A DNA stretch of 64,000 nucleotides, from the sequence record NC_106513.1; one strand, 5' to 3'. The stretch is from Escherichia phage vB_EcoS_ESCO30. Every line of letters begins with the position of its first letter. The first letter of the stretch is position 1. Positions 33,393-64,000 of this stretch are shown here, one piece after another. The notes below the pieces were generated by a model. That model saw nothing but the letters and a program-made list of their open reading frames with translations, ran no database searches and was not told the origin of the DNA. The translations under genes and the position numbers were made by a program.

Positions 33393-35219
33393 TTACTTAA
33401 GATTTAAGTGTTTTACTCTACCAAGCACTTCTTTTTGTTTCCCAGAATTGAAAGGCCTACTGCCCGGGGATCCCAGGTACCCGCAAACCCTACGTGTAAC
33501 CTCTATTTCTTCAGACCCACAACTTGGACATACAAACCCACGCTCAGAGGCAATAGATTCACCCATATATCCGCAGTTGAAACACTCGTCAATCGGTATA
33601 TTAACACCGATATAATGGCTACACTCTAGTCCCTTATCTACTACGTATTCAAGAGCTTTATGGAATTTTTTCATTTGTGGTAATTCCACAAACGATATAT
33701 TACCCCCATTAGCTATTTTGGTAAAATGAGCTTCGTACTCAAATTTAGTATCTGGGGCTACCTTCTCTCTTACGTCCAAATGGTGACTATTAGTAAGATA
33801 GCCTTTGTCTGTTAACCAAGAATACTCTGGGAATCTACGTTCTAGTAATTTATTAAAACGATTACATAGAGACTCACTAGGAGTAGCGTATAAGCTAAAT
33901 CCAAGATTAGTCTCATTAGCTTTAACTTCGCAACGATTTTTTAAGTGAGTGAGAACTTCCTCTGTAAATTCAATACAGTCCCTATGAGTCTGTGGTAAAC
34001 TAAACATTATTTGGCACATCTCATAGACTCCAATATACCCAAGAGATACAGAAGATCTACCCTCAAAAATAGGCCATACATATTCTTCCCCCTCTAAACG
34101 TACACCAAAACCACCGTGCATATAAAGAATAGGGGCTTGTTTAGCCTTCACTTTCTTAAGTCTATCCAAGAAAAAATCATGAGCTTCAAAAGCCTCATCC
34201 ACATATTTGTCCAGAATATCCCAGAAATCTTCAAAAACCCCATCTGCCTCAGCAGCAACCATAGGTAGATTAATAGACACTACACCTAAATTATTGCGCC
34301 CTGCAATTTCTCCGGAGGGGATAGCAGATAAAAAGCTACGACAACCCATAGGGGCTTTAAAATCACCAGTAACAGCTACAACTTTCTCATAGCTTAAATA
34401 GTCTGGGTACATACGGGTAGCAGAACACTCAAGTGCTAGCTGTTTTATATCGTAGTTAGGATCGCCTGGATTTTTATTTAACCCTTCTTTAACTGAGAAT
34501 ACTAGTTTAGGGAAGATAGGGGTTGACTCAGCAGCACCTAAACCTTTAATACGATTTTGGAGGATGGCTTTCTGAATCATCCTTTCCTCCCACTCCTGAC
34601 CTAATCCAAAGCCAAGCGTAACAAAAGGGGTCTGCCCATTAGAGTTAAATAATGAATTAGTTTCATACTCTAGAGCTTGGAATGCATCATAACACTCTTT
34701 TTCAGTAAGCTCAGTGGCATACACAGCAGCTTTTCTTTCATCCTTGAGCCAACGTAGCCCACGACCCAGATGTTTATTGTAAGACTTTCTGACATACGGG
34801 GCTAGAACCTCGTCGATACGATCAATAGAGGTGCCACCATACTGAGCACCAGATACTTGGGCAATAATCTGAGCAGTGATTGCACATGCAGTAGTTATGG
34901 ATTTAGGAGTTTCAATATTTGCATTACCAATTTTAGTACCATTCTTCAGCATGCCACCAAGGTCTACTAAGCAACAGTTAGTGTACCCCTGCGCCCTGTA
35001 ATCCATATCATGAATGTGTATCTTACCTAGATTATGGGCGTCTAATAGATGTTTGGGTAATTCCTGCGATACTAAATACTTGTTGATTTCTCCGGCCAAT
35101 AAGTCTCTTTGAGTATGGAACATCTCACTAGGCTTATTAGCATTATTATGTTGTAAGTCTTTATCCGCAGTTAGAGTGAGCAGACCTTTGCAATTCTCAA
35201 TTAATTCATTCTCTGTCAT
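33393..35219 (-). CDS. nrdD: anaerobic ribonucleoside-triphosphate reductase (class III)
   Basis: 608 aa; C-terminal zinc site CxxC...CPxC and glycyl radical motif RVCGYLG. Confidence 0.85.
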   Translation of the reverse strand: MTENELIENCKGLLTLTADKDLQHNNANKPSEMFHTQRDLLAGEINKYLVSQELPKHLLDAHNLGKIHIHDMDYRAQGYTNCCLVDLGGMLKNGTKIGNANIETPKSITTACAITAQIIAQVSGAQYGGTSIDRIDEVLAPYVRKSYNKHLGRGLRWLKDERKAAVYATELTEKECYDAFQALEYETNSLFNSNGQTPFVTLGFGLGQEWEERMIQKAILQNRIKGLGAAESTPIFPKLVFSVKEGLNKNPGDPNYDIKQLALECSATRMYPDYLSYEKVVAVTGDFKAPMGCRSFLSAIPSGEIAGRNNLGVVSINLPMVAAEADGVFEDFWDILDKYVDEAFEAHDFFLDRLKKVKAKQAPILYMHGGFGVRLEGEEYVWPIFEGRSSVSLGYIGVYEMCQIMFSLPQTHRDCIEFTEEVLTHLKNRCEVKANETNLGFSLYATPSESLCNRFNKLLERRFPEYSWLTDKGYLTNSHHLDVREKVAPDTKFEYEAHFTKIANGGNISFVELPQMKKFHKALEYVVDKGLECSHYIGVNIPIDECFNCGYMGESIASERGFVCPSCGSEEIEVTRRVCGYLGSPGSRPFNSGKQKEVLGRVKHLNLK

Positions 35220-50848: not shown

Positions 50849-50857
50849 AATTCCTCC

Positions 50858-51274: not shown

Positions 51275-51295
51275 AATGGGCTCCTCCCCTTAATT

Positions 51296-53061: not shown

Positions 53062-53081
53062 TATAATATATCTTATAAATT

Positions 53082-53168: not shown

Positions 53169-53177
53169 CCAGATTTT

Positions 53178-53252: not shown

Positions 53253-53275
53253 CCAACTTAATTAGGGGATTACAA

Positions 53276-53464: not shown

Positions 53465-53473
53465 GGAGACTAT

Positions 53474-53659
53474 ATGTCTAAGTTTCAAGAACTCAAGCAA
53501 GAGCTAGAAGAATGTGCCTGCCCTGAATGTCTGGGGATTGGAGAAAGTTCTGATGCAGAAGCAGGAGATACTTTTTGCAATATCTGGGTTTGCCCAAATT
53601 GCAATGGTACAGGTATTAATCCTAACTGTGGTATTTCTCTAGATATTGAAAGAGGATAA
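53474..53659 (+). CDS. hypothetical Cys-rich zinc-ribbon-like small protein
   Basis: 61 aa; CACPEC...CPNCNGTG cysteine pairs. Confidence 0.4.
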   Translation: MSKFQELKQELEECACPECLGIGESSDAEAGDTFCNIWVCPNCNGTGINPNCGISLDIERG

Positions 53660-53761
53660 TACCTGTGAAACTAAAAGATTATTATATTGGTTGGTTTGTG
53701 GGACTAGTAGTAGGATTTTCACTAGGCTATAATATGTATCAACTAATAAACTGATTACACG

Positions 53762-53835
53762 GGGGGTGTAATCGAATTGGCATAGGTACTGGACTTAAAA
53801 TTCAGGTTTTGTGGGTTCGAATCCCACCACCCCTA
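53762..53835 (+). tRNA. tRNA with TAA anticodon (Leu-type anticodon, short variable loop)
   Basis: Acceptor GGGGGTG/CACCCCT; loop CTTAAAA; T-arm GTGGG-TTCGAAT-CCCAC; encoded CCA. Confidence 0.45.
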
Positions 53836-54013
53836 CCAAATTAAGGAAATAAGATGTATAGACATCCACCTCCGCCAACACGTCGTTCTAGGGAAGTCAT
53901 CCTTATGGAATTGACTAAAAACTTCAAGGCAACTCTTGAAGATAGAGATCTAGGCACGGATGAAGATATTGATTTTATTTGTAGACTATTAAAGATGAAA
54001 CTGGAGAAACAAC

Positions 54014-54220
54014 ATGGCTAATCCTGAAATTACCGCACAACGTTTCATGCTTAAAGGCATGATTGCTGAGGCAGGTATAACTCAAGAGGTTGCAGATTTT
54101 CATAAGCAATTTCTTGACATTATAACTCTAGCTAAAGAGACTGGAGAAAAAGAACATGGAGCGGCAATTATGGCTATATCTCTTATTAGTCTAGACTTGG
54201 CTGAAGAATCTGGAGTTTAG
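54014..54220 (+). CDS. hypothetical protein
   Basis: 68 aa ORF. Confidence 0.4.
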   Translation: MANPEITAQRFMLKGMIAEAGITQEVADFHKQFLDIITLAKETGEKEHGAAIMAISLISLDLAEESGV

Positions 54221-54250
54221 CTCCTCCAAACAGAATTTTTAAAAATGTAC

Positions 54251-54280
54251 TTGCCTTTTGCTTTAAATTTCTGATATAAT
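54251..54280 (+). promoter_or_regulatory. sigma70-like early promoter
   Basis: TTGCCT-18-TATAAT plus conserved leader. Confidence 0.45.
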
Positions 54281-54310
54281 AGTTATATAAATTGATGAAG
54301 GAGTTAACGA

Positions 54311-54586
54311 ATGCAAAATCGTGTTATAGCAGCTGGTATTGAAAGTGCAATCTGTAAATCCTGGGAAGGCTGGGAAGGTGAGATTGAATGGCTTTATTTC
54401 TATGATGTAGAACTTCTGCCGGAAGTTAAAGCTAAATGTGTTAAAGCTGGCATGGCTCCGGATGCAAAAGCTGATATTGATATTTCAATGTCTGAACTTA
54501 AAGGTCGTGTAGTTACCGTTAGTAATGAGGGGGAAGAAGTTTTCGAACTTCCATTCTCCTTAACTGTCACTCCTAAGTTCGACTAA
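54311..54586 (+). CDS. hypothetical protein
   Basis: 91 aa ORF with GGAG SD. Confidence 0.45.
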   Translation: MQNRVIAAGIESAICKSWEGWEGEIEWLYFYDVELLPEVKAKCVKAGMAPDAKADIDISMSELKGRVVTVSNEGEEVFELPFSLTVTPKFD

Positions 54587-54622
54587 CTAATACAGCACTG
54601 AGCAAGTTCTTTAAAATTTGAC

Positions 54623-54651
54623 TTGCTCAGTGCCTTAAAACTTGGTATAAT
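54623..54651 (+). promoter_or_regulatory. sigma70-like promoter inside terminator-like hairpin
   Basis: TTGCTC-17-TATAAT; -35 lies within GCACTGAGCAAG...CTTGCTCAGTGC inverted repeat. Confidence 0.45.
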
Positions 54652-54716
54652 AGTTATCTAATTTGGAAACATATTTAAAAGTGTTTAAATTAGAATTTTT
54701 GAATACTTCTAAATAT

Positions 54717-54801
54717 GGGCGTTTATTCCGTAAGTGGTAGCGGAGGGGATTGTAAATCCCTGGTCATTGCGACTCGAGTGGTTCGACTCCATTAACGCCC
54801 A
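54717..54801 (+). tRNA. tRNA-Tyr (anticodon GTA), type II
   Basis: Acceptor GGGCGTT/AACGCCC; loop TTGTAAA; long variable arm; T-arm AGTGG-TTCGACT-CCATT; encoded CCA. Confidence 0.6.
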
Positions 54802-54821
54802 CCAAATTAAAGGTAAAGGAT

Positions 54822-55313
54822 ATGTATATTGATCGGATAATTCAAGAAGCTGCAAATAGAGGTATTATACAGTTGGGTTCACCAGCTGATATAAATAAAG
54901 ATCTAATATTAGAAAGCCTCACATTTGGTACAGCTAACTTTGGTCGCGATAGTAATCGTCGATATAGCTTGAAGTTATCTGCACTATCTTTTATCAAGTA
55001 TAACAAAAGTATTGGAGAAAAATCCAGCTGTGGTTTTATTTACGCAATAACTAACCCAGCTTGGGATAACTATGTAAAAATTGGTATGTCTTCTGATCCT
55101 AAAACAAGATTAAGAAATTACCAAACCTATTCTCCTTTACGTGATTATAAGTTAATACATTGGTCATTTTGGTTTAATGCTAGAGAAGCGGAGAAAATGC
55201 TTCATAATAGCTTTCCTGAACGGCTTAATGAATGGGTAGTGTTAGACAGAGGTGTAGACGAAATACTTTCCGAGTTTAACAATTTATCCAATAAGCAATT
55301 TAAGTCCTGTTAG
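54822..55313 (+). CDS. T5orf172/GIY-YIG-related domain protein
   Basis: GFIYAITNPAWDNYVKIGMSSDPKTRLRNYQT motif block. Confidence 0.55.
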   Translation: MYIDRIIQEAANRGIIQLGSPADINKDLILESLTFGTANFGRDSNRRYSLKLSALSFIKYNKSIGEKSSCGFIYAITNPAWDNYVKIGMSSDPKTRLRNYQTYSPLRDYKLIHWSFWFNAREAEKMLHNSFPERLNEWVVLDRGVDEILSEFNNLSNKQFKSC

Positions 55314-55377
55314 ACAAACTGGTAAAGTCACTACCCTTTCAAGGTAGGATTTGCGGGTTCGATCCCCGCACAGGACG
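55304..55377 (+). tRNA. tRNA-Glu (anticodon TTC)
   Basis: Acceptor GTCCTGT/ACAGGAC; loop CTTTCAA; T-arm GCGGG-TTCGATC-CCCGC; 5' end overlaps stop codon of upstream CDS. Confidence 0.6.
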
Positions 55378-55386
55378 CCAATTTCT

Positions 55387-55462
55387 GCATTCCTAGAGTG
55401 TTACTGGACAGCATGTCGGTCTCCAAAACCGTACGGTCTAGGTTCGAGTCCTAGTAGGTTTG
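55387..55462 (+). tRNA. tRNA-like gene, possible Trp (CCA anticodon), acceptor stem unresolved
   Basis: T-arm CTAGG-TTCGAGT-CCTAG and CGGT-CTCCAAA-ACCG anticodon hairpin; acceptor pairing not found by eye. Confidence 0.3.
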
Positions 55463-55471
55463 CCAAAATTT

Positions 55472-55543
55472 GCACCTTTAGCTGAGATGGATTAGCGCTT
55501 GCCTGAAGAGCTTGAGAGGTTCGTTCGATTCGAACAGGGTGCA
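55472..55543 (+). tRNA. tRNA (possibly Phe, GAA), anticodon stem imperfect
   Basis: Acceptor GCACCTT/AGGGTGC; D-arm and T-arm GTTCG-TTCGATT-CGAAC fold; loop CTGAAGA with two stem mismatches. Confidence 0.4.
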
Positions 55544-55557
55544 CCAATTTGAAGGAG

Positions 55558-55836
55558 ATGCTGATGCATCCTGAAAACTTCTTTATTTACTGCGCGGATA
55601 AGTCGCTGAAACGTAGAATTAATAAAGTCTATCATTATCGTGCTAGTCAACAGCCTTATGTATATGCTTTTGACGGTGATCACATCCCACTAGAACAATT
55701 ATCTTGTGATTACATGATATTGAAGAACTTTGACGAGACGAAGATCTCAAGCGTTCATAATCGACAGAATCCTTTAACGTGGAAATATAAGAGGAAAAAG
55801 AAAGGCATCAAATTCTTAAAAAATGTAGTTGCTTAG
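55558..55836 (+). CDS. hypothetical protein
   Basis: ORF beginning after tRNA; GGAG SD upstream. Confidence 0.4.
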   Translation: MLMHPENFFIYCADKSLKRRINKVYHYRASQQPYVYAFDGDHIPLEQLSCDYMILKNFDETKISSVHNRQNPLTWKYKRKKKGIKFLKNVVA

Positions 55837-55857
55837 TTTCCAAAAGTTCTGTATAAT
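55829..55857 (+). promoter_or_regulatory. sigma70-like early promoter
   Basis: TTGCTT-17-TATAAT; overlaps 3' end of upstream ORF. Confidence 0.5.
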
Positions 55858-55886
55858 AATTACATAAATTGAACTGGAGAAGCGAC

Positions 55887-56111
55887 ATGACAGAACAAGA
55901 ATTGAATGAACGTAAGTTGGTAATGCTTCGCTTACTAAATATTTTCTCTGGTATGGATGGTGGAATTGACTTTGTTCATCTACGTTCTTTCGTAGAAGAA
56001 GCCGAGGGCGAATCTATCACTAAAATCCTTAAACACATGGGATTACTTTTAGACGCTGCTAATGTGGCTACTGAATATAAACTAGAAGATCTACCAGAGC
56101 GTGTTAAATGA
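55887..56111 (+). CDS. hypothetical protein
   Basis: Start at MTEQEL after GGAGAAG SD. Confidence 0.45.
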   Translation: MTEQELNERKLVMLRLLNIFSGMDGGIDFVHLRSFVEEAEGESITKILKHMGLLLDAANVATEYKLEDLPERVK

Positions 56112-56299
56112 AACGATTAGTTAGATTTAAGTGTTGTGGTTCCGAGCACATTTTCACACATCTTCGTGAATTTAAAATGTGCGATTGTGGTAAATCAGGC
56201 TATGACTCAGGAGATGGGTTCTACACCCGTACTCTAGGGAACTTCAATGATCTAGAATTTGAAGATCTCGAAAAACAAGATAAATCGACCGTTGGCTGA
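56108..56299 (+). CDS. hypothetical Cys-containing small protein
   Basis: 63 aa; CCGSEH...CDCG motif; translationally coupled. Confidence 0.4.
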   Translation: MKRLVRFKCCGSEHIFTHLREFKMCDCGKSGYDSGDGFYTRTLGNFNDLEFEDLEKQDKSTVG

Positions 56300-56358
56300 A
56301 TGGCTTAGGCGAAGGATTGCAAATCCTTTTTATGTGAGTTCAAATCTCATGCGGTCGT
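56286..56358 (+). tRNA. tRNA-Cys (anticodon GCA)
   Basis: Acceptor CGACCGT/GCGGTCG; loop TTGCAAA in AAGGA/TCCTT stem; T-arm GTGAG-TTCAAAT-CTCAT; overlaps 3' end of upstream CDS. Confidence 0.6.
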
Positions 56359-56513
56359 CCAATTTGCTGAAAGAATTGTTAAATCAATTCAGGCACGCGT
56401 AGGAACACTGTCTCCGTAATTGAAAGATGAGGCACGGTTTGGAGAGGTATGCCGCTACACGCTACGGTGCTAACTCCGTCTAGGTGAAAATCCTAGTCAG
56501 CAATATAAATTTA

Positions 56514-56593
56514 GGGTCGTTAGCCAAGCGGTTTGGCGGTGGACTGTTAATCCATGTCGAAAGACAACGTAGGTTCGAATCCTACACGGCCCG
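56514..56593 (+). tRNA. tRNA with GTT (Asn) anticodon and extended variable arm
   Basis: Acceptor GGGTCGT/ACGGCCC; D-stem GCCA/TGGC; loop CTGTTAA; 13-nt variable hairpin GTCGAAAGAC; T-arm GTAGG-TTCGAAT-CCTAC. Confidence 0.5.
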
Positions 56594-56698
56594 CCAAATT
56601 CTGTGTAGAGTTAAGTAAACCGGTAGCCAACCAGCTATCATTGCTGACATCGAATTCAGCCACAGATACCATTTTCATTAATAATTGAGGAAACAAGC

Positions 56699-56884
56699 AT
56701 GTCCAAGAATGTAATTGCACAGCTAGAAGTTCATCGTGATAGCACTATCAACAATATTGAAGTTGAGAAGAAATACATCGAAGAACTTAAACATGATATA
56801 CTAGTAAGTCTCAATCGTCTTAATGTACGAAAAGAGTTTCTTAAAGAACTTAATGCAGCTATTGAAAAACTCAAAGCTGAGTAA
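56699..56884 (+). CDS. hypothetical coiled-coil small protein
   Basis: 61 aa ORF with GAGGAAA SD. Confidence 0.4.
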   Translation: MSKNVIAQLEVHRDSTINNIEVEKKYIEELKHDILVSLNRLNVRKEFLKELNAAIEKLKAE

Positions 56885-56893
56885 ATAAATTAT

Positions 56894-56967
56894 GCGACCG
56901 GGGCTGGCTTGGTAATGGTACTCCCCTGTCACGGGAGGGAATGTGGGTTCAAATCCCATCGGTCGCG
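56894..56967 (+). tRNA. tRNA-Asp (anticodon GTC)
   Basis: Perfect acceptor GCGACCG/CGGTCGC; CTCCC-CTGTCAC-GGGAG anticodon arm; T-arm GTGGG-TTCAAAT-CCCAT; encoded CCA. Confidence 0.65.
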
Positions 56968-56995
56968 CCAAATTAATTTAGTATGAGAATATACT

Positions 56996-57343
56996 ATGCG
57001 TAATGCCAAAGAAGAGTTGTTACTTGCCTTAAAAAATACTAATTCTGAAGTTAAGTGTATTAAAATAGAATTCGGGTATTATGGGGATAAAAAAGTTTGG
57101 GTATTACCTTTAGGTTATACAGAAGAAGACATTGAGGATTTTCTTAATAACCTAGACTTTGAATATGATTCTGGATATGGTGGACAATTACTTTATGGTA
57201 ATGTATGGTTTGCCGACGGAACTTGGCTAGAACGTGGGGAATATGACGGTGCTGAGTGGTGGGAATACAAGGCCACCCCGGCAATCCCAGAGGAATGCCG
57301 AACAATTAATGGTGAAGTAGACAATACTTTACGGTTAAACTAA
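56996..57343 (+). CDS. hypothetical protein
   Basis: 115 aa ORF. Confidence 0.45.
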   Translation: MRNAKEELLLALKNTNSEVKCIKIEFGYYGDKKVWVLPLGYTEEDIEDFLNNLDFEYDSGYGGQLLYGNVWFADGTWLERGEYDGAEWWEYKATPAIPEECRTINGEVDNTLRLN

Positions 57344-57351
57344 TAAAATTT

Positions 57352-57424
57352 CAGTGCGTAGCGCAGTTGGTAGCGTGGGATCCTTGGATGATTCGGGTCG
57401 CAGGTTCGAGTCCTGCCGCACTGA
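57352..57424 (+). tRNA. tRNA-Pro (anticodon TGG)
   Basis: Acceptor CAGTGCG/CGCACTG; GGATC-CTTGGAT-GATTC anticodon arm; T-arm GCAGG-TTCGAGT-CCTGC; encoded CCA. Confidence 0.65.
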
Positions 57425-57433
57425 CCAAACAAT

Positions 57434-57506
57434 TGCGGGTGGGAGGCATAGAGTTCTTCTTAGTCTCATAAGCTAAGTAAGTCCAGGGCAGTACTGGAAC
57501 CCGCTA
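57434..57506 (+). tRNA. tRNA-like gene with CAT anticodon and non-canonical T-loop
   Basis: 6-bp acceptor pairing; loop CTCATAA; T-arm TCCAG-GGCAGTA-CTGGA lacks TTCRA consensus. Confidence 0.35.
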
Positions 57507-57527
57507 CCAATTTCAAGAAAAACGCAG

Positions 57528-57556
57528 TTGCTTAATGCTTAATTTCTTGTTATAAT
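57528..57556 (+). promoter_or_regulatory. sigma70-like promoter driving an untranslated leader into tRNA genes
   Basis: TTGCTT-17-TATAAT; followed by GATGAGGAGAAATCCTCATC hairpin, no ORF before tRNA-Ala. Confidence 0.5.
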
Positions 57557-57794
57557 ATTTATATAAATTGATGAGGAGAAATCCTCATCATAGTTCACTA
57601 AGGTATTAGCTCGACCTAGGACTGGCTGCCAAAAAGCACGATCCCTACTATTTGGGAGAAGTTCTAGATTAGTCCACTAGATTCAGCGGCAACTGAATAG
57701 TGTATTGGGTTTGCGAGATGACGCAGTTCCTTCCGCTCGAAGCGAAGGTGCTGTAGTTACGCCGAGCTAATAGCCTTAGTAAACTAAAGAATTT

Positions 57795-57866
57795 GGGCGA
57801 ATAGTGTCAGCGGGAGCACACCAGACTTGCAATCTGGTAGGGAGGGTTCGAGTCCCTCTTTGTCCA
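57795..57866 (+). tRNA. tRNA-Ala (anticodon TGC)
   Basis: Acceptor GGGCGAA/TTTGTCC (G-U pairs); D-stem GTGT/GCAC; CCAGA-CTTGCAA-TCTGG; T-arm GAGGG-TTCGAGT-CCCTC; encoded CCA. Confidence 0.65.
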
Positions 57867-57874
57867 CCAAATTC

Positions 57875-57956
57875 GGGGCTATGCTGGAACTGGTAGACAA
57901 TACGGCCTTAGATTCCGTAGCTTAAATGCGTGGGAGTTCGAGTCTCCCTAGCCCCA
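57875..57956 (+). tRNA. tRNA-Leu (anticodon TAG), type II
   Basis: Perfect acceptor GGGGCTA/TAGCCCC; loop CTTAGAT; long variable region; T-arm GGGAG-TTCGAGT-CTCCC; encoded CCA. Confidence 0.5.
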
Positions 57957-57976
57957 CCAACTCATAGGATTTATGT

Positions 57977-58561
57977 ATGCAGTTTGTACCAGTAAAAGAT
58001 GCACCAGGGTATTTAGTAAATGAGGCGGGGGATGTGTTCTCTACATTTACTAATAAAGTTTTATCAAGATATATAGTTGATGGATACCCTGCTGTAAAAT
58101 TACAGATAAATGGTAAACAAACCTCTGTACTTATACACCGAATTATTTCTCATGTATTTGGGGACTTATATAATCTATTTGACCCTGAATTAGAGGTAGA
58201 TCATAAGGATAGAGATAGACTGAATCTATCTAAAGATAATCTTCAAGTCCTATCAAAAATAGAACATCAGAGGAAAACTAATAAAGATAATGGGTGGTCT
58301 GACAGTAGAGTACCTTGCCCCCTATGTGGGAGTCTAATGCTTCAGAGATCTGTAACATGTACAAATTGTAAGCCAAAACCTACAGGAAGGTTGATAAAAC
58401 CAGAATTGTCTTTAGACGACATAACTGAAAAGGTTTTATTAATGGGGTGGGTTAAGGCAGCTAAAGAGTTAGAAGTATCAGAGTCCACTTTGCGCAGGAG
58501 GTATACTAAACTAACTGGATTAAGCCCAAAAGTATTAACAGAACAACGGAAAAGCAAATAG
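57977..58561 (+). CDS. HNH homing endonuclease (NUMOD-like N-terminus + HNH)
   Basis: ...LIHRIISHVFGDL...EVDHKDRDRLNLSKDNLQVLSKIEHQRK... HNH core; embedded in tRNA cluster. Confidence 0.65.
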   Translation: MQFVPVKDAPGYLVNEAGDVFSTFTNKVLSRYIVDGYPAVKLQINGKQTSVLIHRIISHVFGDLYNLFDPELEVDHKDRDRLNLSKDNLQVLSKIEHQRKTNKDNGWSDSRVPCPLCGSLMLQRSVTCTNCKPKPTGRLIKPELSLDDITEKVLLMGWVKAAKELEVSESTLRRRYTKLTGLSPKVLTEQRKSK

Positions 58562-58638
58562 ACTGGCGACTAAACCCGATTGGAAATCGGTTGAGTAATA
58601 GCAATATTGCCTTATGGGTTCAACTCCCATCTTTTCCG
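58548..58638 (+). tRNA. tRNA-Ser (anticodon GGA), type II
   Basis: Perfect acceptor GGAAAAG/CTTTTCC; ACCGA-TTGGAAA-TCGGT anticodon arm; long variable arm; T-arm ATGGG-TTCAACT-CCCAT; overlaps 3' end of HNH CDS. Confidence 0.5.
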
Positions 58639-58648
58639 CCAAACAAAT

Positions 58649-58735
58649 GGAAGATAGGACGTAGTGGTACGTAACTGGTCTTGAAAACCAGCCCGCTGTA
58701 GTGATACGGTGATGGTTCGACTCCATTATCTTCTG
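58649..58735 (+). tRNA. tRNA-Ser (anticodon TGA), type II
   Basis: Acceptor GGAAGAT/ATCTTCT; perfect CTGGT-CTTGAAA-ACCAG anticodon arm; long variable arm; T-arm GATGG-TTCGACT-CCATT; encoded CCA. Confidence 0.6.
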
Positions 58736-58754
58736 CCAACTTATAGGGTAATAT

Positions 58755-58937
58755 ATGTCTTTAACGAAAACTGTGAAGGTTACACTAACTGATGGCACAG
58801 AGTTTAGTGCACAAATAACCTTACTAGAAGACGGTTATTGGGAAGTATATCTTCCACACGTTAATTCTACTGGTAGAGGATGGACTCAACAACAGGCTAT
58901 TGTTGATGCTTTAAATGAGGCTTCCGCTGGTTTATAA
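58755..58937 (+). CDS. hypothetical protein
   Basis: 60 aa ORF. Confidence 0.4.
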   Translation: MSLTKTVKVTLTDGTEFSAQITLLEDGYWEVYLPHVNSTGRGWTQQQAIVDALNEASAGL

Positions 58938-59304
58938 AAATTCTTGGAATATGCCGGAATTGGTAGACGGGACTGCCCAATAGGTTTACTAGGAACATCC
59001 ACTCCTAGAAATATACCTTAAAAGCGGTTGAGTTAAATGGTCTAACTCATGAAGGTTCAAGTCCTTCTGCTTCTTGATACATCTATGGCTCAAAGTGTAA
59101 CGGTGCTATTTGATGCTCTTGGAAAGACTTTCCCGACAGGCGTTCGGGGGTAAGCTTCTGAGGCTAGAATAGAAGAGTTTCTGAGAGCCGCCACAATTGA
59201 AAATTCGTACTCGTCTTGAGCTGCGTGCAATAGGAGATAACTTGATTAGTATTCTAGAACATGCTAATTGAGGATGGTTTCGCTAACCCTGCGAGTTTTC
59301 AATT

Positions 59305-59378
59305 GTGGCTATATCATAATTGGTTAATGATCCTGATTGTGAATCAGGCCTATGTGGATTCGAATTCCACTAGCCACC
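59305..59378 (+). tRNA. tRNA-His (anticodon GTG)
   Basis: Perfect acceptor GTGGCTA/TAGCCAC; CCTGA-TTGTGAA-TCAGG anticodon arm; T-arm GTGGA-TTCGAAT-TCCAC; encoded CCA. Confidence 0.65.
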
Positions 59379-59406
59379 CCAAATTAACTTAAATAGGAAA
59401 TAAAAT

Positions 59407-59604
59407 ATGGCTGATTTCTGCAAACAATGCTCCATTGATATGTGGGGCAGAGATACTGGTGATCTTTCTGGTTTGATTACAGAAGCCGAAGTCAAAGAAG
59501 GTTATGGTGCAGTTGTGATTTGCGAAGGATGCGGAGTTATTCGAGTAGATCATGAAGGCAAACGTTTAGAAGAACCGGAAAATTTAGGAGAAACAAATGA
59601 GTAA
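59407..59604 (+). CDS. hypothetical Cys-containing small protein
   Basis: 65 aa; CKQCS...CEGCG cysteine pairs. Confidence 0.4.
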   Translation: MADFCKQCSIDMWGRDTGDLSGLITEAEVKEGYGAVVICEGCGVIRVDHEGKRLEEPENLGETNE

Positions 59605-59833
59605 TGCTTTAATTAGTGAAATTATGTTAACACGTCTTGCAGAACTGCAAACTCTTCGAGATGAATCTCAGAATAACTTAGCCTATCATAAACAGATGGT
59701 AGATACTCTTACTACTCGTATTGAAACTTACGAGCGTGATATTGCAGCATTACAAGCTCTTTTCTCTGTATCAGCACCAGATACATTAGAACAGCCTGCC
59801 GTATCTCAGCCGGTAGAAACAGCATCTAGTTAA
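59597..59833 (+). CDS. hypothetical protein
   Basis: 78 aa ORF overlapping previous by 8 nt. Confidence 0.4.
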   Translation: MSNALISEIMLTRLAELQTLRDESQNNLAYHKQMVDTLTTRIETYERDIAALQALFSVSAPDTLEQPAVSQPVETASS

Positions 59834-59842
59834 TAGCATTCT

Positions 59843-59915
59843 TGGAGTGTAGATCAATTGGCAGATCGTCGGCCTCTGACTCCGAAGGTTCCTGGTTCGA
59901 TCCCAGGCACTCCAG
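59843..59915 (+). tRNA. tRNA-Gln (anticodon CTG)
   Basis: Perfect acceptor TGGAGTG/CACTCCA; loop CTCTGAC; T-arm CCTGG-TTCGATC-CCAGG; encoded CCA. Confidence 0.5.
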
Positions 59916-59924
59916 CCAAACAAT

Positions 59925-59997
59925 TGGAGAGTAGTGTAACGGTTAGCACAACGGCCTTTGACTCCGTTAATGGTAGGTTCGATTCCTCCTTCTCCAG
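59925..59997 (+). tRNA. tRNA-Gln (anticodon TTG)
   Basis: Acceptor TGGAGAG/TTCTCCA; D-stem GTGT/GCAC; loop CTTTGAC; T-loop TTCGATT; encoded CCA. Confidence 0.5.
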
Positions 59998-60008
59998 CCA
60001 AACAATAA

Positions 60009-60081
60009 GCGGTTAAGCACACGGGTTGTGTCGCAGGCCTTCCAAGCCTCGCTGAGTAGGGTTCGATTCCCTCTAGCCGCT
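60009..60081 (+). tRNA. tRNA-Gly (anticodon TCC)
   Basis: Acceptor GCGGTTA/TAGCCGC; AGGC-CTTCCAA-GCCT anticodon hairpin; T-loop TTCGATT; encoded CCA. Confidence 0.5.
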
Positions 60082-60100
60082 CCAACTTTAAGGAAACGTT

Positions 60101-60322
60101 ATGCACGTTTTTGAGTTTCGTAATAAAAGTACCAATAAACGAGTTATTGTTATTGGGGAAACATATCGAGCATATGAACAAACTGACGGCTCTGTTATCT
60201 TGAATGATGAGAAAGGGGGTTTTAGCTTTTATCCAGAAGAAACGTATGAGGGGTTTCGTACTAAGTTTCTTTTACCAGACTGGCTAGCAGTAGCCGAGCA
60301 ACGAGAATCCGAAGATGGCTGA
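60101..60322 (+). CDS. hypothetical protein
   Basis: 73 aa ORF. Confidence 0.4.
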   Translation: MHVFEFRNKSTNKRVIVIGETYRAYEQTDGSVILNDEKGGFSFYPEETYEGFRTKFLLPDWLAVAEQRESEDG

Positions 60323-60479
60323 TAACCTAAAATTAAGAGTTGACAAACAAAAGAAATACGTTGAGGTTGAATTAGGCGAAGAACGCTTAAAGCTAACTTT
60401 CGAGTTTCTTCAGCAGTTGGCTATGACAGTTATGACTGATAAGTCTCCTGTTATTGAAAAAGAAATCCCGTTGAAATAA
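60315..60479 (+). CDS. hypothetical small protein
   Basis: 54-aa ORF overlapping previous stop (ATGGCTGA), coiled-coil-like. Confidence 0.3.
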   Translation: MADNLKLRVDKQKKYVEVELGEERLKLTFEFLQQLAMTVMTDKSPVIEKEIPLK

Positions 60480-60489
60480 CGGGATTATC

Positions 60490-60561
60490 GCTCCTAAAGC
60501 ATTGCTGGCGATGCAGCTGCCTTGTAAGCATCTGAACCGGGTTCGATTCCTGGTGGGAGCA
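60490..60561 (+). tRNA. tRNA-Thr (anticodon TGT)
   Basis: Acceptor GCTCCTA/TGGGAGC; D-arm GCAT...ATGC; loop CTTGTAA; T-arm CCGGG-TTCGATT-CCTGG; encoded CCA. Confidence 0.55.
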
Positions 60562-60579
60562 CCAAATTTAAAAATTCAT

Positions 60580-60608
60580 TTGCCTTCTCTCTTATTTCTT
60601 GTTATAAT
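60580..60608 (+). promoter_or_regulatory. sigma70-like early promoter
   Basis: TTGCCT-17-TATAAT plus conserved leader. Confidence 0.5.
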
Positions 60609-60638
60609 ATTTATATAAGTTAATGAGAGGGAAACCAA

Positions 60639-60932
60639 ATGAAACGTTATCTTTCTGTTGTGTTCCAAACTGGTGGTCAACGCTATACCTATGAATTTCC
60701 TAGCTCTTGGAAGATCAAAGAAGGTGATCAAGTAGTAGTGTTAACACCGCGTGAGGGTTTCAAGGTAGTAACGGTTAAGCAAGTATTTCCAAAAGAGCAT
60801 GAACCAGCTAAAGGCATTCGCTATAAGATGATTCATGGTGTAGTTCGTCAAGTACCACGAGTGGAGGTCGAAATCAAAGTAGATAAAGATGGTAAACTTA
60901 AATATACCTCTTGCTTAGACGAGTTGCTATAA
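60639..60932 (+). CDS. hypothetical protein
   Basis: 97 aa ORF with GAGAGGG SD. Confidence 0.45.
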   Translation: MKRYLSVVFQTGGQRYTYEFPSSWKIKEGDQVVVLTPREGFKVVTVKQVFPKEHEPAKGIRYKMIHGVVRQVPRVEVEIKVDKDGKLKYTSCLDELL

Positions 60933-61138
60933 TGAGGATTACTTTTACAGAAAAGATCATGAGTAATGGTGTTATGATCATTACCGCATGGGATGGCAAT
61001 CAGTGGTGTAGTGTTTCAGGTATTAAGCCTGAAAAACAAACACTAGAAAATATCTCAAAGATTAAGCGAAGAATGGCAGAACGTGCACGACTTCCAGGTG
61101 CACCTAGAAATGGCAAACGTTCTGCTGTAAAATGTTAA
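60932..61138 (+). CDS. hypothetical protein
   Basis: Start at MRITFTEK overlapping previous stop (TAATG). Confidence 0.4.
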   Translation: MRITFTEKIMSNGVMIITAWDGNQWCSVSGIKPEKQTLENISKIKRRMAERARLPGAPRNGKRSAVKC

Positions 61139-61139
61139 T

Positions 61140-61213
61140 GCTTCGGTAGCTTAGCGATCTAAAGCACTCGGCTGATAACCGAGAGATCGGGGGTTTAAAT
61201 CCCTCCCGGAGTA
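61140..61213 (+). tRNA. tRNA-Ile (anticodon GAT)
   Basis: Acceptor GCTTCGG/CCGGAGT; D-stem GCTT/AAGC; perfect CTCGG-CTGATAA-CCGAG; unusual T-loop TTTAAAT; encoded CCA. Confidence 0.55.
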
Positions 61214-61312
61214 CCAAATTTAGGAATTAAGACTATGCGTCCAGGAAAGTTTAAAAAAGCTAATTGGACTAAAGAGTATAAAGAATACTTACTTAGCCTA
61301 ATAAAACATAAT

Positions 61313-61385
61313 AGTTAGTTGGCAGAGTGGTTATGCACCTCCTTCATACGGAGCGACTACAGTGGTTCAAATCCACTACTAACTA
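61313..61385 (+). tRNA. tRNA with CAT anticodon (Met or Ile-lysidine)
   Basis: Perfect acceptor AGTTAGT/ACTAACT; loop TTCATAC; T-arm AGTGG-TTCAAAT-CCACT; no encoded CCA. Confidence 0.5.
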
Positions 61386-61425
61386 TCATTAAAAGAGCTA
61401 GAGATAGCTAACTTTAGGAGCAGCT

Positions 61426-61620
61426 ATGTTAACAATTAAAATAATGTCAGCCAAGAATGGGGAACAGATTCATACAGGCAAAAGTGTAAGCTTTAATCCT
61501 AGAAATAAAAGATTGGCTATAGTTGGAGTAGACCAAGCCATCTTTTTAAAAGAAGATGAAGTAGCATATGTCATGAACCAAACTGGTAAGACAGTTTCCG
61601 TATACTATGGAAAAGTATAA
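61426..61620 (+). CDS. hypothetical protein
   Basis: 64 aa ORF with AGGAG SD. Confidence 0.45.
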   Translation: MLTIKIMSAKNGEQIHTGKSVSFNPRNKRLAIVGVDQAIFLKEDEVAYVMNQTGKTVSVYYGKV

Positions 61621-61662
61621 AGAATAAATAGCTGAGCCAAATTCTAACATCGGGGAGATCTA

Positions 61663-62031
61663 ATGAAAGCATATCAAAATCTTAAATCTGGCGTAATTAA
61701 CCTTGTTCATGAAAATCAGATTATTCAGCTATACTCCGACAATGGTGAACTTAAACAGAAAGTTCTAGTTGAAGATCTAGAAGGTATCACACCACAATTC
61801 GATCCAGAAGCCTTCCGTGAAGTCAAAGTGGAAGTCGCCCCTCAAATCGAAGGTGGTCAGCACCTAAATGTCAATGTATTAAGCCGTGATCAGCTTTTGG
61901 ATGCACAGAAACATCCTGAAAAATACCCTCAATTAACTATCCGTGTTTCAGGGTACGCTGTACGTTTTAATGCACTGACTCGTGAACAGCAGAACGACGT
62001 TATTAGTCGTACATTTACTCAGGCGATGTAA
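61663..62031 (+). CDS. grcA: autonomous glycyl radical cofactor (GrcA/YfiD-like)
   Basis: 122 aa; C-terminal ...[56 protein letters not shown] closely matches E. coli YfiD glycyl-radical region. Confidence 0.75.
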
Positions 62032-62112
62032 TGGGGTTTGGATACGATTTCTCCGAACTACGTGAGGTAGTCGAGCAAATTCCATTTATCTCCCAAGTTT
62101 TAGGAGAAATGT

Positions 62113-62418
62113 GTGGATCGAGCATTAAGACGCCATCATCGGCAACGTGTGAAGAACAACCGCAAGAAGTATTGGACAGTCTTCCCACATGAAGAAAGCC
62201 CTAAGCGGTTAGGTATTATCACTACTACTCCTTGCATTTGTTCTTGTTGGATGTGTGGGAACCCTCGCAAATACTATAAAAATAGTAAAGCAGGTATGAA
62301 AACCTCGGAGATCAGGAAAATGGAAGCGATGATTGCGGACATCACCTATACTGGTGGTATTTCAAATGATGAATTTGATGGCTTCGTAGCGTTCGAAGAT
62401 GAACGTCCCGATCTGTAA
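62113..62418 (+). CDS. hypothetical Cys-containing protein (GTG start)
   Basis: 101 aa; CICSCWMCG motif; TAGGAGA SD 5 nt upstream. Confidence 0.4.
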   Translation: MDRALRRHHRQRVKNNRKKYWTVFPHEESPKRLGIITTTPCICSCWMCGNPRKYYKNSKAGMKTSEIRKMEAMIADITYTGGISNDEFDGFVAFEDERPDL

Positions 62419-62427
62419 TTAATAACA

Positions 62428-62466
62428 AACCCCAGCTATTGAATAAGTAGTCTGGGGTTTTTCTGT
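62428..62466 (+). terminator. rho-independent terminator
   Basis: CCCCAG-loop-CTGGGG hairpin followed by TTTTTCTGT. Confidence 0.65.
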
Positions 62467-62539
62467 ATACAGGAAAATAGTTTATGTATAATAAAATTCA
62501 TCCACATTAGGTTAATTTAAAAGACTTAATGGAGGTAAT

Positions 62540-62887
62540 ATGAGCCGTACTTATCGTAGACAATCTGGTGATCAGTGGTGGAAGTCTAAAGAACAATTCT
62601 CTCAAGAATATTCTTTCCTTAAAGAAAATGGCTACTGGATTCGTGTTATTTATGCTAAATCCTGGGATGATGTAGAACAGGAAATGAAGGAAGCAACCAT
62701 TCGTAATGAGAAAAAGGATGGTTATAACTGGAATTCTATTAGTAAGAATGTTAAGTGGCATTCTAATAAAATGGTTCGTCAAGGGAATCGTCAAGAACTC
62801 CACCGCGTGATGAAAGATCCAGAAAATGATGATTATAATCGCGATCATGACATGCGTAAGCGTGGGTTATGGTGGCGCTATGACTAA
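62540..62887 (+). CDS. hypothetical protein
   Basis: 115 aa ORF with GGAGG SD. Confidence 0.45.
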   Translation: MSRTYRRQSGDQWWKSKEQFSQEYSFLKENGYWIRVIYAKSWDDVEQEMKEATIRNEKKDGYNWNSISKNVKWHSNKMVRQGNRQELHRVMKDPENDDYNRDHDMRKRGLWWRYD

Positions 62888-62904
62888 ATTCTGAAATAAT
62901 TCAT

Positions 62905-62933
62905 TTGCTAAACCTCTCTTTTCTTGCTATAAT
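62905..62933 (+). promoter_or_regulatory. sigma70-like early promoter
   Basis: TTGCTA-17-TATAAT plus conserved leader. Confidence 0.5.
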
Positions 62934-62963
62934 ATGTTTATAAATTGATGAGAGAGGTTTGAA

Positions 62964-63245
62964 ATGAAAACTCGTCTAGACTGTGCTGTTCATGTTCTTG
63001 AACATGATGTTGCGGGAACCTGTATGTCTTACCACGAAGCAGGTCGTTTAATTAAAGAACGTGTGGCAGATGTGTGCGGATTGAAGATTACTGCTGAGGA
63101 AGCTGATGATCTTTTAGGTCAAGCACTGGAGAAAACCGAAATGTTTCTCTGCGATTCTTGTTCTTGGTGGTGTGAAGCTCACGAACGTTCTTTCAACGAT
63201 TATGATGTATGTCGTGATTGTAGTGGGGAGGATGAAGATGAATAA
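62964..63245 (+). CDS. hypothetical Cys-rich protein with acidic C-terminus
   Basis: 93 aa; CDSCSWWCEAHE...CRDCSGEDEDE. Confidence 0.45.
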   Translation: MKTRLDCAVHVLEHDVAGTCMSYHEAGRLIKERVADVCGLKITAEEADDLLGQALEKTEMFLCDSCSWWCEAHERSFNDYDVCRDCSGEDEDE

Positions 63246-63537
63246 GTTTATTATTGCACTGATGATCTCCGCAGTTAGTTTCGGTTCTCTGGCGTCTACC
63301 AAAGTTTCTATGAAAAATGGTAATGTTAAAGTCCAACAGAACGGCATTATTACAGAGTATGGTAAAGTTCGTGATGTTAAGGAACGTAATGGTAAAGTAG
63401 AAATATATACTAATAAAAACTTCTCTACTCCGGCTGTTACTGTTAGCAAACGTGGTGAGATAACTACTCAACGTACTAATAGCTCTAGTTCTTTTACTTG
63501 TCGTTATGATTGCGACTTCGAAGGTGAAGATGAATAA
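63232..63537 (+). CDS. hypothetical secreted protein (signal peptide)
   Basis: Start MKMNKFIIALMISAVSFGSLAS; overlaps previous ORF; ends CRYDCDFEGEDE. Confidence 0.45.
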   Translation: MKMNKFIIALMISAVSFGSLASTKVSMKNGNVKVQQNGIITEYGKVRDVKERNGKVEIYTNKNFSTPAVTVSKRGEITTQRTNSSSSFTCRYDCDFEGEDE

Positions 63538-63925
63538 TTTAGATCCTAGAATTAAATTTGCAATTACAGAAATCCAAGATCAAATTGATGAGGACTTCAC
63601 TGTTTGGTCAAGGTCCGGTAATGGGGAATACTGCCAGCTTTATAGCATGAAAATGGGCATTTCAATCGAGCTTAACATTAACTCTGAAGGTAGAGTAGAA
63701 GCCCAACCACTATTCAGTGTTCCAGGCTTCTCTGGATTTGTTGCAGGTATGAAATTGTGTCTACCAAATAACCATCTTCATCGAGTTATTTGTCAGCTAG
63801 AGACTATTAAACATTTCTTGCCAGAAGGTAACATTAATGACTACTACCATGAAGTTGTAGCAGCTCATATGATGAAAGAACGCAAACGTCGGAGAGAAGA
63901 ACGTGAAAAAGCTAAACATCAATAG
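63530..63925 (+). CDS. hypothetical protein
   Basis: Start MNNLDPRIKF overlapping previous stop (ATGAATAA). Confidence 0.45.
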   Translation: MNNLDPRIKFAITEIQDQIDEDFTVWSRSGNGEYCQLYSMKMGISIELNINSEGRVEAQPLFSVPGFSGFVAGMKLCLPNNHLHRVICQLETIKHFLPEGNINDYYHEVVAAHMMKERKRRREEREKAKHQ

Positions 63926-64000
63926 CACAGTGCAGATTCCAGCAACTAAGGACATCTTAACATTCCTGCGTAGTGAGAATACACAATTTTGGCATGACTA

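What the first reader, a model, noticed from the sequence alone, without database searches (positions are those of the whole stretch)
61663..62031. GrcA (YfiD) glycyl-radical cofactor homolog, distant from nrdD and with no nrdG in the window
The 122-aa product ends in a near-canonical glycyl-radical motif ([13 protein letters not shown]) and aligns by eye along most of E. coli YfiD. The phage also encodes class III RNR NrdD (33393-35219, glycyl motif RVCGYLG), but no radical-SAM activase (no CxxxCxxC protein of suitable size). A phage spare-part glycyl-radical domain may rescue oxygen-damaged glycyl-radical enzymes, or compete for the host activase.
Basis: partly seen in the sequence, partly recalled or inferred. 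Interest (0 to 1): 0.6.

Follow-up and report, generated by a model that had tools for sequence, protein, structure and literature searches.

The report
Phage spare-part for pyruvate formate-lyase
This T5-like phage gene encodes a small "spare-part" protein of a kind already shown in phage T4 and E. coli to repair the host's oxygen-damaged pyruvate formate-lyase, so the finding is real but ordinary and already annotated.

Summary
The ORF at 61663-62031 (+) is real and encodes a 122-aa GrcA/YfiD-type autonomous glycyl-radical protein. It is 74% identical to E. coli GrcA over 74 aa and 79% identical to the last 62 aa of PflB, and it keeps the RVSGYAV glycyl loop. The window is a T5-like phage (Demerecviridae). 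The gene is the ortholog of T5.056, belongs to the same phage family (phrog_1209) as T4 vs.6/Y06I, and occurs in about 1,580 phage records. Y06I was shown in 2001 to be activated by the host PFL activase and to restore activity to O2-cleaved PFL. The gene is under strong purifying selection (dN/dS 0-0.11). No NrdG or PflA activase exists in the window or in a complete close relative, but nrdD without nrdG in T5-type phages is already published. The PFL-type Gly loop argues against rescue of NrdD or competition for NrdG. One modest new point: in jumbo and Aeromonas phages the gene sits inside nrdD-nrdG clusters. That fits a role in keeping PFL supplying formate, the reductant of class III RNR, but this is inference. 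Verdict: confirmed, already known, low interest.

The parts
61663..62031 (+). GrcA/YfiD-type autonomous glycyl-radical ('spare part') protein gene, 122 aa plus stop; ortholog of T5.056 and a family member of T4 vs.6/Y06I
61663..61827 (+). N-terminal half (codons 1-55). It is a phage-type sequence sharing 'MKAYQ' with T4 vs.6 and ends in the GrcA-type linker [10 protein letters not shown]. It probably acts in docking to cleaved PFL, by analogy with YfiD residues 1-60
   Evidence: dN/dS 0.02-0.21; role of the YfiD N-terminus from PMC8683613
61828..62028 (+). C-terminal glycyl-radical domain (codons 56-122), equivalent to YfiD 61-127 and PFL 693-759: beta-strand, Gly loop and C-terminal helix
   Evidence: dN/dS <=0.04; domain limits from PMC8683613
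61951..61953 (+). Codon for Gly97, the predicted radical-bearing glycine (equivalent to PflB Gly734) within RVSGYAV
   Evidence: read from the sequence and alignments
61652..61657 (+). Shine-Dalgarno GGGGAG, 5 nt upstream of the ATG
   Evidence: read from the sequence
60580..60608 (+). Sigma-70 promoter-like site (TTGCCT-17-TATAAT with TG). It is the likely start of the transcription unit and sits at the position of T5 promoter P11
   Evidence: T5 annotation. Inferred, not shown
62427..62465 (+). Rho-independent terminator hairpin plus U-run that ends the unit, after the ORF at 62113-62418
   Evidence: sequence; dG -19 kcal/mol, z -4.9; T5 annotates a terminator at the same position
33393..35219 (-). 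Context only: class III RNR NrdD without an ATP-cone, E. coli-type PMGCRSFL finger loop, RVCGYLG Gly loop. Inferred consumer of the formate made by PFL; it needs host NrdG

Best explanation
The gene encodes a T5-lineage member of the GrcA/YfiD/Y06I family of autonomous glycyl-radical 'spare part' proteins. Proposed mechanism, by homology to the characterised E. coli and T4 proteins: (1) the protein is made early in infection from a unit shared with tRNA genes; (2) its N-terminal half helps it dock onto host pyruvate formate-lyase (PflB) whose own C-terminal glycyl-radical domain has been cleaved at Gly734 by oxygen, or is otherwise inactive; (3) its C-terminal 67 residues replace that domain; (4) the host radical-SAM activase PflA installs the radical on Gly97 in the RVSGYAV loop, which restores PFL activity (pyruvate + CoA -> acetyl-CoA + formate). 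The phage encodes no activase, so the protein depends on host PflA that was already present before infection. Inferred physiological rationale: virulent phages that shut down or destroy the host genome cannot rely on new host PflB or GrcA synthesis, so they carry their own repair part. This keeps fermentative ATP and acetyl-CoA production going and keeps formate available, and formate is the reductant of the phage's E. coli-type class III RNR (NrdD). Shown here: homology, motif conservation, purifying selection, absence of an activase, and gene context. Inferred: activation by PflA, docking to PflB, and the link through formate to NrdD.
For: The domain is 74% identical to GrcA over 74 aa and 79% identical to PflB 699-760, and RVSGYAV is intact. 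The GrcA-specific linker REVxVEVxP is present and is absent from PflB. The full-length match to phrog_1209 has E=8e-48, and T4 vs.6/Y06I belongs to that PHROG. Y06I and YfiD are activated by PFL-AE and rescue O2-cleaved PFL (PMC8683613). PFL-AE accepts RVSGYAV and not RVCGYLG (PMC13450708). dN/dS against 27 T5-like alleles is 0-0.11, <=0.04 in the radical domain and 0.02-0.21 in the N-terminal half. Nucleotide identity to host grcA/pflB is 69-73%, about half of the conserved codons are synonymously changed, and GC is phage-like, so this is an old resident gene that is maintained. No NrdG or PflA is present in the window or in a complete relative. For the formate link: formate is the H-donor of E. 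coli-type NrdD (PMC13450708 and PMC4493059). The window NrdD passes the NF006732 equivalog cutoff and has the PMGCRSFL finger loop. GrcA-like genes lie inside nrdD/nrdG clusters in Aeromonas phage AsFcp_4 and in 4 of 80 IMG/VR loci from two lineages, and all of those keep the PFL-type loop.
Against: No biochemistry exists for any T5-lineage protein. The protein scores below the NCBIfam GrcA cutoff (121 against 170 bits), although the validated T4 Y06I does too (153). The N-terminal ~45 aa do not align significantly with GrcA, so docking could differ. In the radical domain the protein differs from both PflB and GrcA at 10 of 62 positions (7 of the 14 positions where those two differ, plus 3 where they agree), and the effect on fit to host PflB is untested. 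The link to NrdD rests on clustering in a minority of lineages. In T5-like and T4-like phages the genes are unlinked, and genome-wide co-occurrence was not computed.
Confidence: 0.8

Rival explanations
1. Decoy or competitor: the phage protein soaks up host PflA (or occupies PflB unproductively) to reduce or redirect host fermentation, and does not repair PFL.
For: The phage has no activase and must use host PflA. The radical domain has 10 lineage-specific substitutions relative to PflB and GrcA.
Against: The T4 family member restores PFL activity and does not inhibit it (PMC8683613). PflA acts catalytically, so titrating it is an inefficient strategy. Every catalytically relevant motif is conserved, with dN/dS <=0.04 across the whole docking domain, as expected for a part that must fit and function. 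Clustering with nrdDG in other phages fits formate supply, not formate loss.
Confidence: 0.06
2. Spare part for the phage's own class III RNR (NrdD), or a substrate or competitor of the NrdG activase.
For: The phage carries NrdD. In some phages the gene sits between or beside nrdD and nrdG.
Against: The Gly loop is RVSGYAV and not RVCGYLG, and activase specificity follows the loop sequence. The domain is homologous to the PFL C-terminus (79%) and shows no detectable similarity to the Zn-ribbon-containing C-terminus of NrdD. All homologs inside nrdDG clusters also keep the PFL-type loop.
Confidence: 0.02
3. The main target is another PFL-like host enzyme, such as 2-ketobutyrate formate-lyase TdcE, and not PflB.
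For: Several GenBank records name the protein '2-ketobutyrate formate-lyase'. TdcE is a close PflB paralog that also produces formate (PMC5600444, title and abstract).
Against: Those names are automatic similarity labels. Only PFL rescue has been demonstrated for the family. TdcE was not compared here.
Confidence: 0.08
4. A decaying fragment of a captured host pflB or grcA gene with no function.
For: It matches only the C-terminal 62 aa of a 760-aa enzyme and is often annotated 'pyruvate formate-lyase'.
Against: The ORF is intact with a good SD. It is present in ~430 T5-like records at >=90% identity and ~1,580 phage records overall. dN/dS is 0-0.11, with up to 33 synonymous but few non-synonymous changes. 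The T4 family member has demonstrated activity.
Confidence: 0.01

Closest known systems
T4 Y06I (gene vs.6), autonomous glycyl radical cofactor
   Same: Same phage family (phrog_1209). Similar length (120 against 122 aa), shared 'MKAYQ' start, REVxVE linker, RVSGYAV loop, 52.7% identity over the full length. Encoded by a virulent enterobacterial phage that also has NrdD. Y06I was shown to be activated by PFL-AE and to reconstitute O2-fragmented PFL.
   Different: The last 60 codons of T4 are a recent host-derived copy of E. coli grcA (177/180 nt identical). The window gene is an old, separately diverged lineage (69% nt identity to grcA). T4 encodes its own NrdG and T5-like phages do not. The N-terminal halves are only loosely similar.
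E. coli GrcA (YfiD), PDB 6owr
   Same: Small standalone protein. The C-terminal 74 aa are 74% identical, with the linker motif and radical loop conserved. Domain plan: N-terminal docking half plus a C-terminal PFL-like radical domain.
   Different: The N-terminal ~45 aa are not detectably similar. The protein scores 121 bits on TIGR04365 (cutoff 170), where GrcA scores 234. It has a 2-aa shorter linker. It is phage-encoded and expressed with tRNA genes in an early phage unit.
C-terminal glycyl-radical domain of PflB (residues 693-759), PDB 1h16 / 2pfl
   Same: 79% identical over 62 aa with no gaps. This is the part of PFL lost on O2 cleavage that the spare part replaces.
   Different: The protein is not a PFL. 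It lacks the ~690-aa catalytic barrel with Cys418/419 (TIGR01255 85.9 bits against a cutoff of 994). The GenBank label 'pyruvate formate-lyase' is therefore a misnomer.
T5.056 of phage T5 (NC_005859)
   Same: Direct ortholog: 95% identical, same neighbours (tRNA-Ile, tRNA-Met upstream; T5.055 downstream; terminator).
   Different: Annotated only as 'putative acetyltransferase-related protein' from an InterPro domain match. No functional study was found.

Membership tests
[quoted passage not shown] | Small (~14 kDa) standalone protein | tested here: met
   122-aa ORF with its own SD and stop
[quoted passage not shown] | C-terminal ~65 aa homologous to PFL 693-759 (beta-strand, Gly loop, C-terminal helix) | tested here: met
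   Pfam PF01228 E=3.7e-18; PflB 698-759 E=5e-27, 79% identity; GrcA 6owr E=1.4e-30
[quoted passage not shown] | PFL-type radical loop RVSGYAV, the PFL-AE recognition sequence | tested here: met
   RVSGYAV at residues 94-100; specificity statement from PMC13450708
[quoted passage not shown] | GrcA-type linker (Y/F)REVxVEVxP before the radical domain, absent from PflB | tested here: met
   [10 protein letters not shown] at residues 51-60
[quoted passage not shown] | N-terminal half homologous to GrcA residues 1-50 | tested here: inconclusive
   No significant direct alignment. Linked only transitively: T4 vs.6 aligns to TIGR04365 positions 25-126, and metagenomic phage variants bridge the motifs
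[quoted passage not shown] | Score above the curated NCBIfam equivalog cutoff (170 bits) | tested here: not met
   121 bits. The biochemically validated T4 Y06I also fails (153.3) and E. coli GrcA scores 234, so the cutoff defines bacterial GrcA and not the function
[quoted passage not shown] | Glycyl radical installed by PFL-AE (PflA) | not testable with these tools
   Needs EPR with purified proteins
[quoted passage not shown] | Restores activity to O2-cleaved PFL | not testable with these tools
   Needs an enzyme assay with PflB(1-733)
Phage Y06I/vs.6 family (phrog_1209) | Full-length match to the family profile, which contains T4 vs.6 | tested here: met
   E=8e-48, residues 1-122 on profile positions 1-121; T4 vs.6 is tagged phrog 1209
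Pyruvate formate-lyase (formate C-acetyltransferase, TIGR01255), the common GenBank label | ~750-aa catalytic barrel with the Cys418/Cys419 active site | tested here: not met
   Only profile positions 683-744 match; 85.9 bits against a cutoff of 994
Class III RNR glycyl-radical domain (a possible NrdD spare part) | RVCGYLG loop preceded by a Cys4 Zn-ribbon | tested here: not met
   The loop is RVSGYAV and there is no Cys cluster
Phage-encoded GRE activase (NrdG/PflA radical-SAM) | CxxxCxxC motif in a protein of >=150 aa homologous to NrdG or PflA, somewhere in the genome | tested here: not met
   The only CxxxCxxC is in a 101-aa ORF of unknown family. tblastn best E is 0.16-0.59. HMM best is 7.8 bits against a 239-bit control

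The most novel reading that the evidence does not exclude
The phage GrcA-like protein works in practice as an accessory of phage anaerobic nucleotide reduction. After host shutoff it keeps host PFL alive under microaerobic conditions, so formate, the reductant of the phage's class III RNR, keeps flowing. On this reading T5-like phages run two glycyl-radical systems (phage GrcA on host PflB, and phage NrdD) entirely on host activases (PflA and NrdG) that were already present. The embedding of grcA-like genes in nrdD-nrdG operons of jumbo and Aeromonas phages would be the genomic trace of this coupling.
Probability: 0.35. Interest if true: 0.45.

Novelty: already known. Interest (0 to 1): 0.2.

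Why it matters
It matters little for discovery. The protein kind was characterised in 2001 (E. coli YfiD and T4 Y06I), and the T5 ortholog has been in GenBank since the T5 genome was deposited. It has some practical value:
- Hundreds of T5-like records mislabel this 122-aa protein as 'pyruvate formate-lyase', '2-ketobutyrate formate-lyase', 'acetyltransferase-related' or even 'ribonucleotide reductase subunit'. PHROGs lists the family as 'unknown function'. All of these could be corrected to 'autonomous glycyl radical cofactor (GrcA/Y06I family)'.
- The T5 lineage is a naturally diverged spare part, with 10 of 62 domain positions unlike both PflB and GrcA. Groups studying how spare parts recognise damaged PFL could use it.
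- The clustering with nrdDG in other phages gives a testable hypothesis linking PFL repair to formate supply for phage class III RNR.

Tried and rejected
1. Cryptic activase next door. The only CxxxCxxC motif in the window and in the whole S131 genome is in the 101-aa ORF at 62113-62418, 82 nt downstream of the gene. I rejected it as an activase for four reasons. It is too small for a radical-SAM fold. It has no Pfam, NCBIfam or PDB match. Its family (phrog_4499) also occurs in Erwinia, Rhizobium, Acinetobacter and Psychrobacter phages. T4 vs.6 has different neighbours.
2. Recent capture from the host. Rejected for the window gene: 69-73% nt identity to host genes and phage-like GC. It is true for the 3' 180 nt of T4 vs.6.
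3. Independent capture of the pflB 3' end, as opposed to GrcA ancestry. Rejected because of the GrcA-type linker and the shared phage N-terminus. At the 14 positions where PflB and GrcA differ, the window protein is PflB-like at 4, GrcA-like at 3 and like neither at 7.
4. Single-sequence AlphaFold2 model. Mean pLDDT was 34.4, which is uninformative, so no fold search was run. Alignment-based prediction needed sequences from the large protein search.
5. Literature on the T5-lineage protein, on vs.6 plus formate, or on T5 nrdG. Nothing specific was found. Wei et al. 2014 (PMC4246965) is not held.
6. Rfam scan of 60000-64000 found only tRNAs. Minus-strand ORFs overlapping the gene are 33-57 aa; I did not search them for homologs and treated them as spurious.

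Full report
**The observation**

A GGGGAG Shine-Dalgarno sequence lies 5 nt upstream.

- It matches Pfam Gly_radical (PF01228, E=3.7e-18).
- It matches the solved structure of E. coli GrcA (6owr, E=1.4e-30) and residues 698-759 of pyruvate formate-lyase (E=5e-27).
- Pairwise BLASTP against E. coli K-12 GrcA gives 55/74 identities (E=3e-39). Identity to PflB 699-760 is 79% with no gaps.

One correction: only residues ~46-122 align significantly with GrcA, and the first ~45 do not. NrdD is at 33393-35219 (-) with RVCGYLG, as stated.

**What the window is, and how common the gene is**

The region is 96-98% identical at the DNA level to many T5-like phages (Demerecviridae, Tequintavirus) of Salmonella and E. 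coli.

- The protein is 100% identical to that of Salmonella phages Th1 and S131, and 95% identical to T5.056 of phage T5.
- tblastn finds homologs in 1,583 phage records. About 430 are T5-like at >=90% identity. About 1,000 are T4-like at ~53%, where the gene is vs.6.
- The protein matches phrog_1209 over its full length (E=8e-48), and T4 vs.6 belongs to the same PHROG.
- GenBank labels vary: 'pyruvate formate-lyase', '2-ketobutyrate formate-lyase', 'acetyltransferase-related', 'autonomous glycyl radical cofactor'.

**What is known about the family**

Knappe's group showed that E. coli YfiD (GrcA) and T4 Y06I (= vs.6) are converted to the radical form by the PFL activase and restore activity to O2-fragmented PFL. 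These remain the only two validated spare-part proteins (Wagner 2001, as cited in PMC8683613; also PMC13450708).

YfiD residues 61-127 have the fold of PFL 693-759. Residues 1-60 are disordered but are needed for binding cleaved PFL and for efficient radical installation. By ungapped alignment from the C-terminus, window residues 56-122 correspond to YfiD 61-127, and Gly97 corresponds to PflB Gly734.

**Membership**

The protein meets these criteria:
- small standalone size;
- a PFL-type C-terminal domain;
- the RVSGYAV loop;
- the GrcA-specific linker (F/Y)REVxVEVxP, which PflB lacks.

It fails the curated TIGR04365 cutoff (121 against 170 bits). The validated T4 Y06I also fails it (153 bits), while E. 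coli GrcA scores 234. That cutoff therefore marks bacterial GrcA and not the function.

It is not a PFL. Only the last 62 profile positions match (85.9 bits against a cutoff of 994).

**Is it a maintained gene?**

Against 27 distinct T5-like alleles, dN/dS is 0-0.11 overall. It is <=0.04 in the radical domain and 0.02-0.21 in the N-terminal half. Both halves are therefore constrained, which fits a docking role for the N-terminus.

Compared with host grcA and pflB, the last 62 codons are 77-79% identical in protein but only 69-73% in DNA. About half of the conserved codons are synonymously changed, and GC (0.40) matches the phage (0.39) and not E. coli grcA (0.48). This is an old resident phage gene.

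At the 14 positions where PflB and GrcA differ, it is PflB-like at 4, GrcA-like at 3 and like neither at 7. It also differs at three positions where PflB and GrcA agree.

**The 'no nrdG' part**

- A CxxxCxxC scan of the window finds only a 101-aa ORF (62113-62418) and an implausible frame.
- The complete 110,091-bp S131 genome has that same single hit.
- tblastn with E. coli NrdG, E. coli PflA and T4 NrdG finds nothing better than E=0.16 in the window or in S131.
- An HMM built from seven NrdG sequences gives at most 7.8 bits, against 239 bits for the T4 control.
- The S131 annotation lists nrdD, nrdA, nrdB and a thioredoxin, but no nrdG.

This arrangement is already published. Dwivedi et al. 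[quoted passage not shown] The window has the same layout.

Consistent with use of host NrdG, the last ~50 aligned residues of T5-like NrdD are 63-68% identical to E. coli NrdD. The figure is 48% for T4 NrdD, which has its own activase. All three are ~50% identical over the last 125 residues.

**Which enzyme does it serve?**

Activase specificity follows the Gly loop. PFL-AE acts on the RVSGYAV peptide but not on RVCGYLG (PMC13450708). The window protein has the first loop and the window NrdD has the second. This argues against rescue of NrdD and against competition for NrdG.

**Context**

In T5 the ortholog lies in a unit: promoter P11 - T5.058 - tRNA-Ile - T5.057 - tRNA-Met - T5.056 - T5.055 - terminator. 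The window has these equivalents:
- a promoter-like site at 60580-60608;
- the two tRNAs;
- a terminator hairpin at about 62427-62465 (dG -19 kcal/mol, z -4.9).

Elsewhere the context is more telling. Aeromonas phage AsFcp_4 has nrdD-nrdG-vs.6-nrdC-nrdH. In a survey of 80 IMG/VR loci, four have the GrcA-like gene inside the nrdD/nrdG cluster. Three of these are 345-357 kb jumbo phages and one is a 235 kb phage. All four keep RVSGYAV. Ten other loci were simply full-length bacterial-type PflB. The rest, T5-like and T4-like phages among them, have no RNR gene within 10 kb.

Formate, the product of PFL, is the hydrogen donor of E. coli- and T4-type NrdD. The window NrdD is an E. coli-type equivalog (793 bits against a cutoff of 657) with the PMGCRSFL finger loop. 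I therefore infer, but have not shown, that one benefit of the spare part is a continued formate supply for phage dNTP synthesis. From general knowledge of T5 and T4 biology (host DNA degradation and host transcription shutoff), a phage copy makes sense because host pflB and grcA can no longer be expressed after infection.

**Verdict**

It is wrong or unsupported about NrdD rescue and activase competition. The case is already known and annotated. The formate/NrdD coupling is the only mildly new angle, and it remains a hypothesis.

Noticed in passing
window 62113-62418 (+): A 101-aa basic, Cys-rich ORF (…TTTPCICSCWMCGNPRKYY…) holds the only CxxxCxxC motif in the window and in the entire S131 genome. 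It belongs to phrog_4499 (E=9e-40), has no Pfam, NCBIfam or PDB match, and equals T5.055. The S131 annotation truncates it to 55 aa. Homologs occur in Erwinia, Rhizobium, Acinetobacter and Psychrobacter phages. Function unknown, possibly a small zinc-binding protein.
   Followed up: partly
window 62031-62192 (+): A 53-aa ORF (phrog_31464, E=3.8e-33) whose ATG overlaps the GrcA-like stop codon (TAATG), which suggests translational coupling. It overlaps the next ORF (62113-62418) by 80 nt in another frame, so at least one of the two start sites is uncertain.
   Followed up: no
window 33393-36111 (-): The window NrdD allele is only ~60% identical to the NrdD of S131 and most T5-like phages, although the GrcA-like proteins are 100% identical. 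Only 49 phage records carry this allele at >=95%. A 301-aa endonuclease-like ORF (T5orf172/MUG113 plus DUF4379 zinc fingers; phrog_681) at 35206-36111 overlaps the nrdD start by 14 nt. This looks like allele replacement linked to a homing endonuclease.
   Followed up: partly
L001:4181-4360 (T4 vs.6) against L004 (E. coli grcA): The last 180 nt of T4 vs.6 are 177/180 identical to E. coli K-12 grcA. Identity falls to background (7-15 of 30) immediately upstream. T4 vs.6 is therefore a mosaic of a phage-type 5' half and a recently host-derived 3' half. The window gene shows no such tract.
   Followed up: partly
L012:365-3953; L042-L044 and L072 around 7000-12000: GrcA-like genes are embedded in anaerobic RNR clusters: nrdD-nrdG-vs.6-nrdC-nrdH in Aeromonas phage AsFcp_4, and nrdD-grcA-nrdG in three 345-357 kb jumbo-phage contigs. 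All keep the PFL-type RVSGYAV loop.
   Followed up: partly
window 60008-60081 (+): A tRNA that ARAGORN did not call. It is identical to T5's annotated tRNA-Gly(UCC) (T5t04). Rfam gives only a sub-threshold tRNA-Sec-model hit (30.9 bits). This would bring the window's tRNA array (48902-61387) to 23 genes.
   Followed up: yes
window 33393-35219 (-) against E. coli and T4 NrdD: T5-like NrdD proteins, which have no phage NrdG, keep a more host-like glycyl-radical tail than T4 NrdD, which has its own NrdG. Identity to E. coli NrdD over the last ~50 aligned residues is 63-68% against 48%. This fits dependence on the host NrdG activase.
   Followed up: partly
window 31862-32698 (-), 36389-37150 (+), 37495-41077 (+): A SIR2-family protein, PhoH, and class Ia RNR NrdA/NrdB flank nrdD. 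This is the same nrdD-phoH-nrdAB layout reported for T5, SPC35 and EPS7.
   Followed up: no
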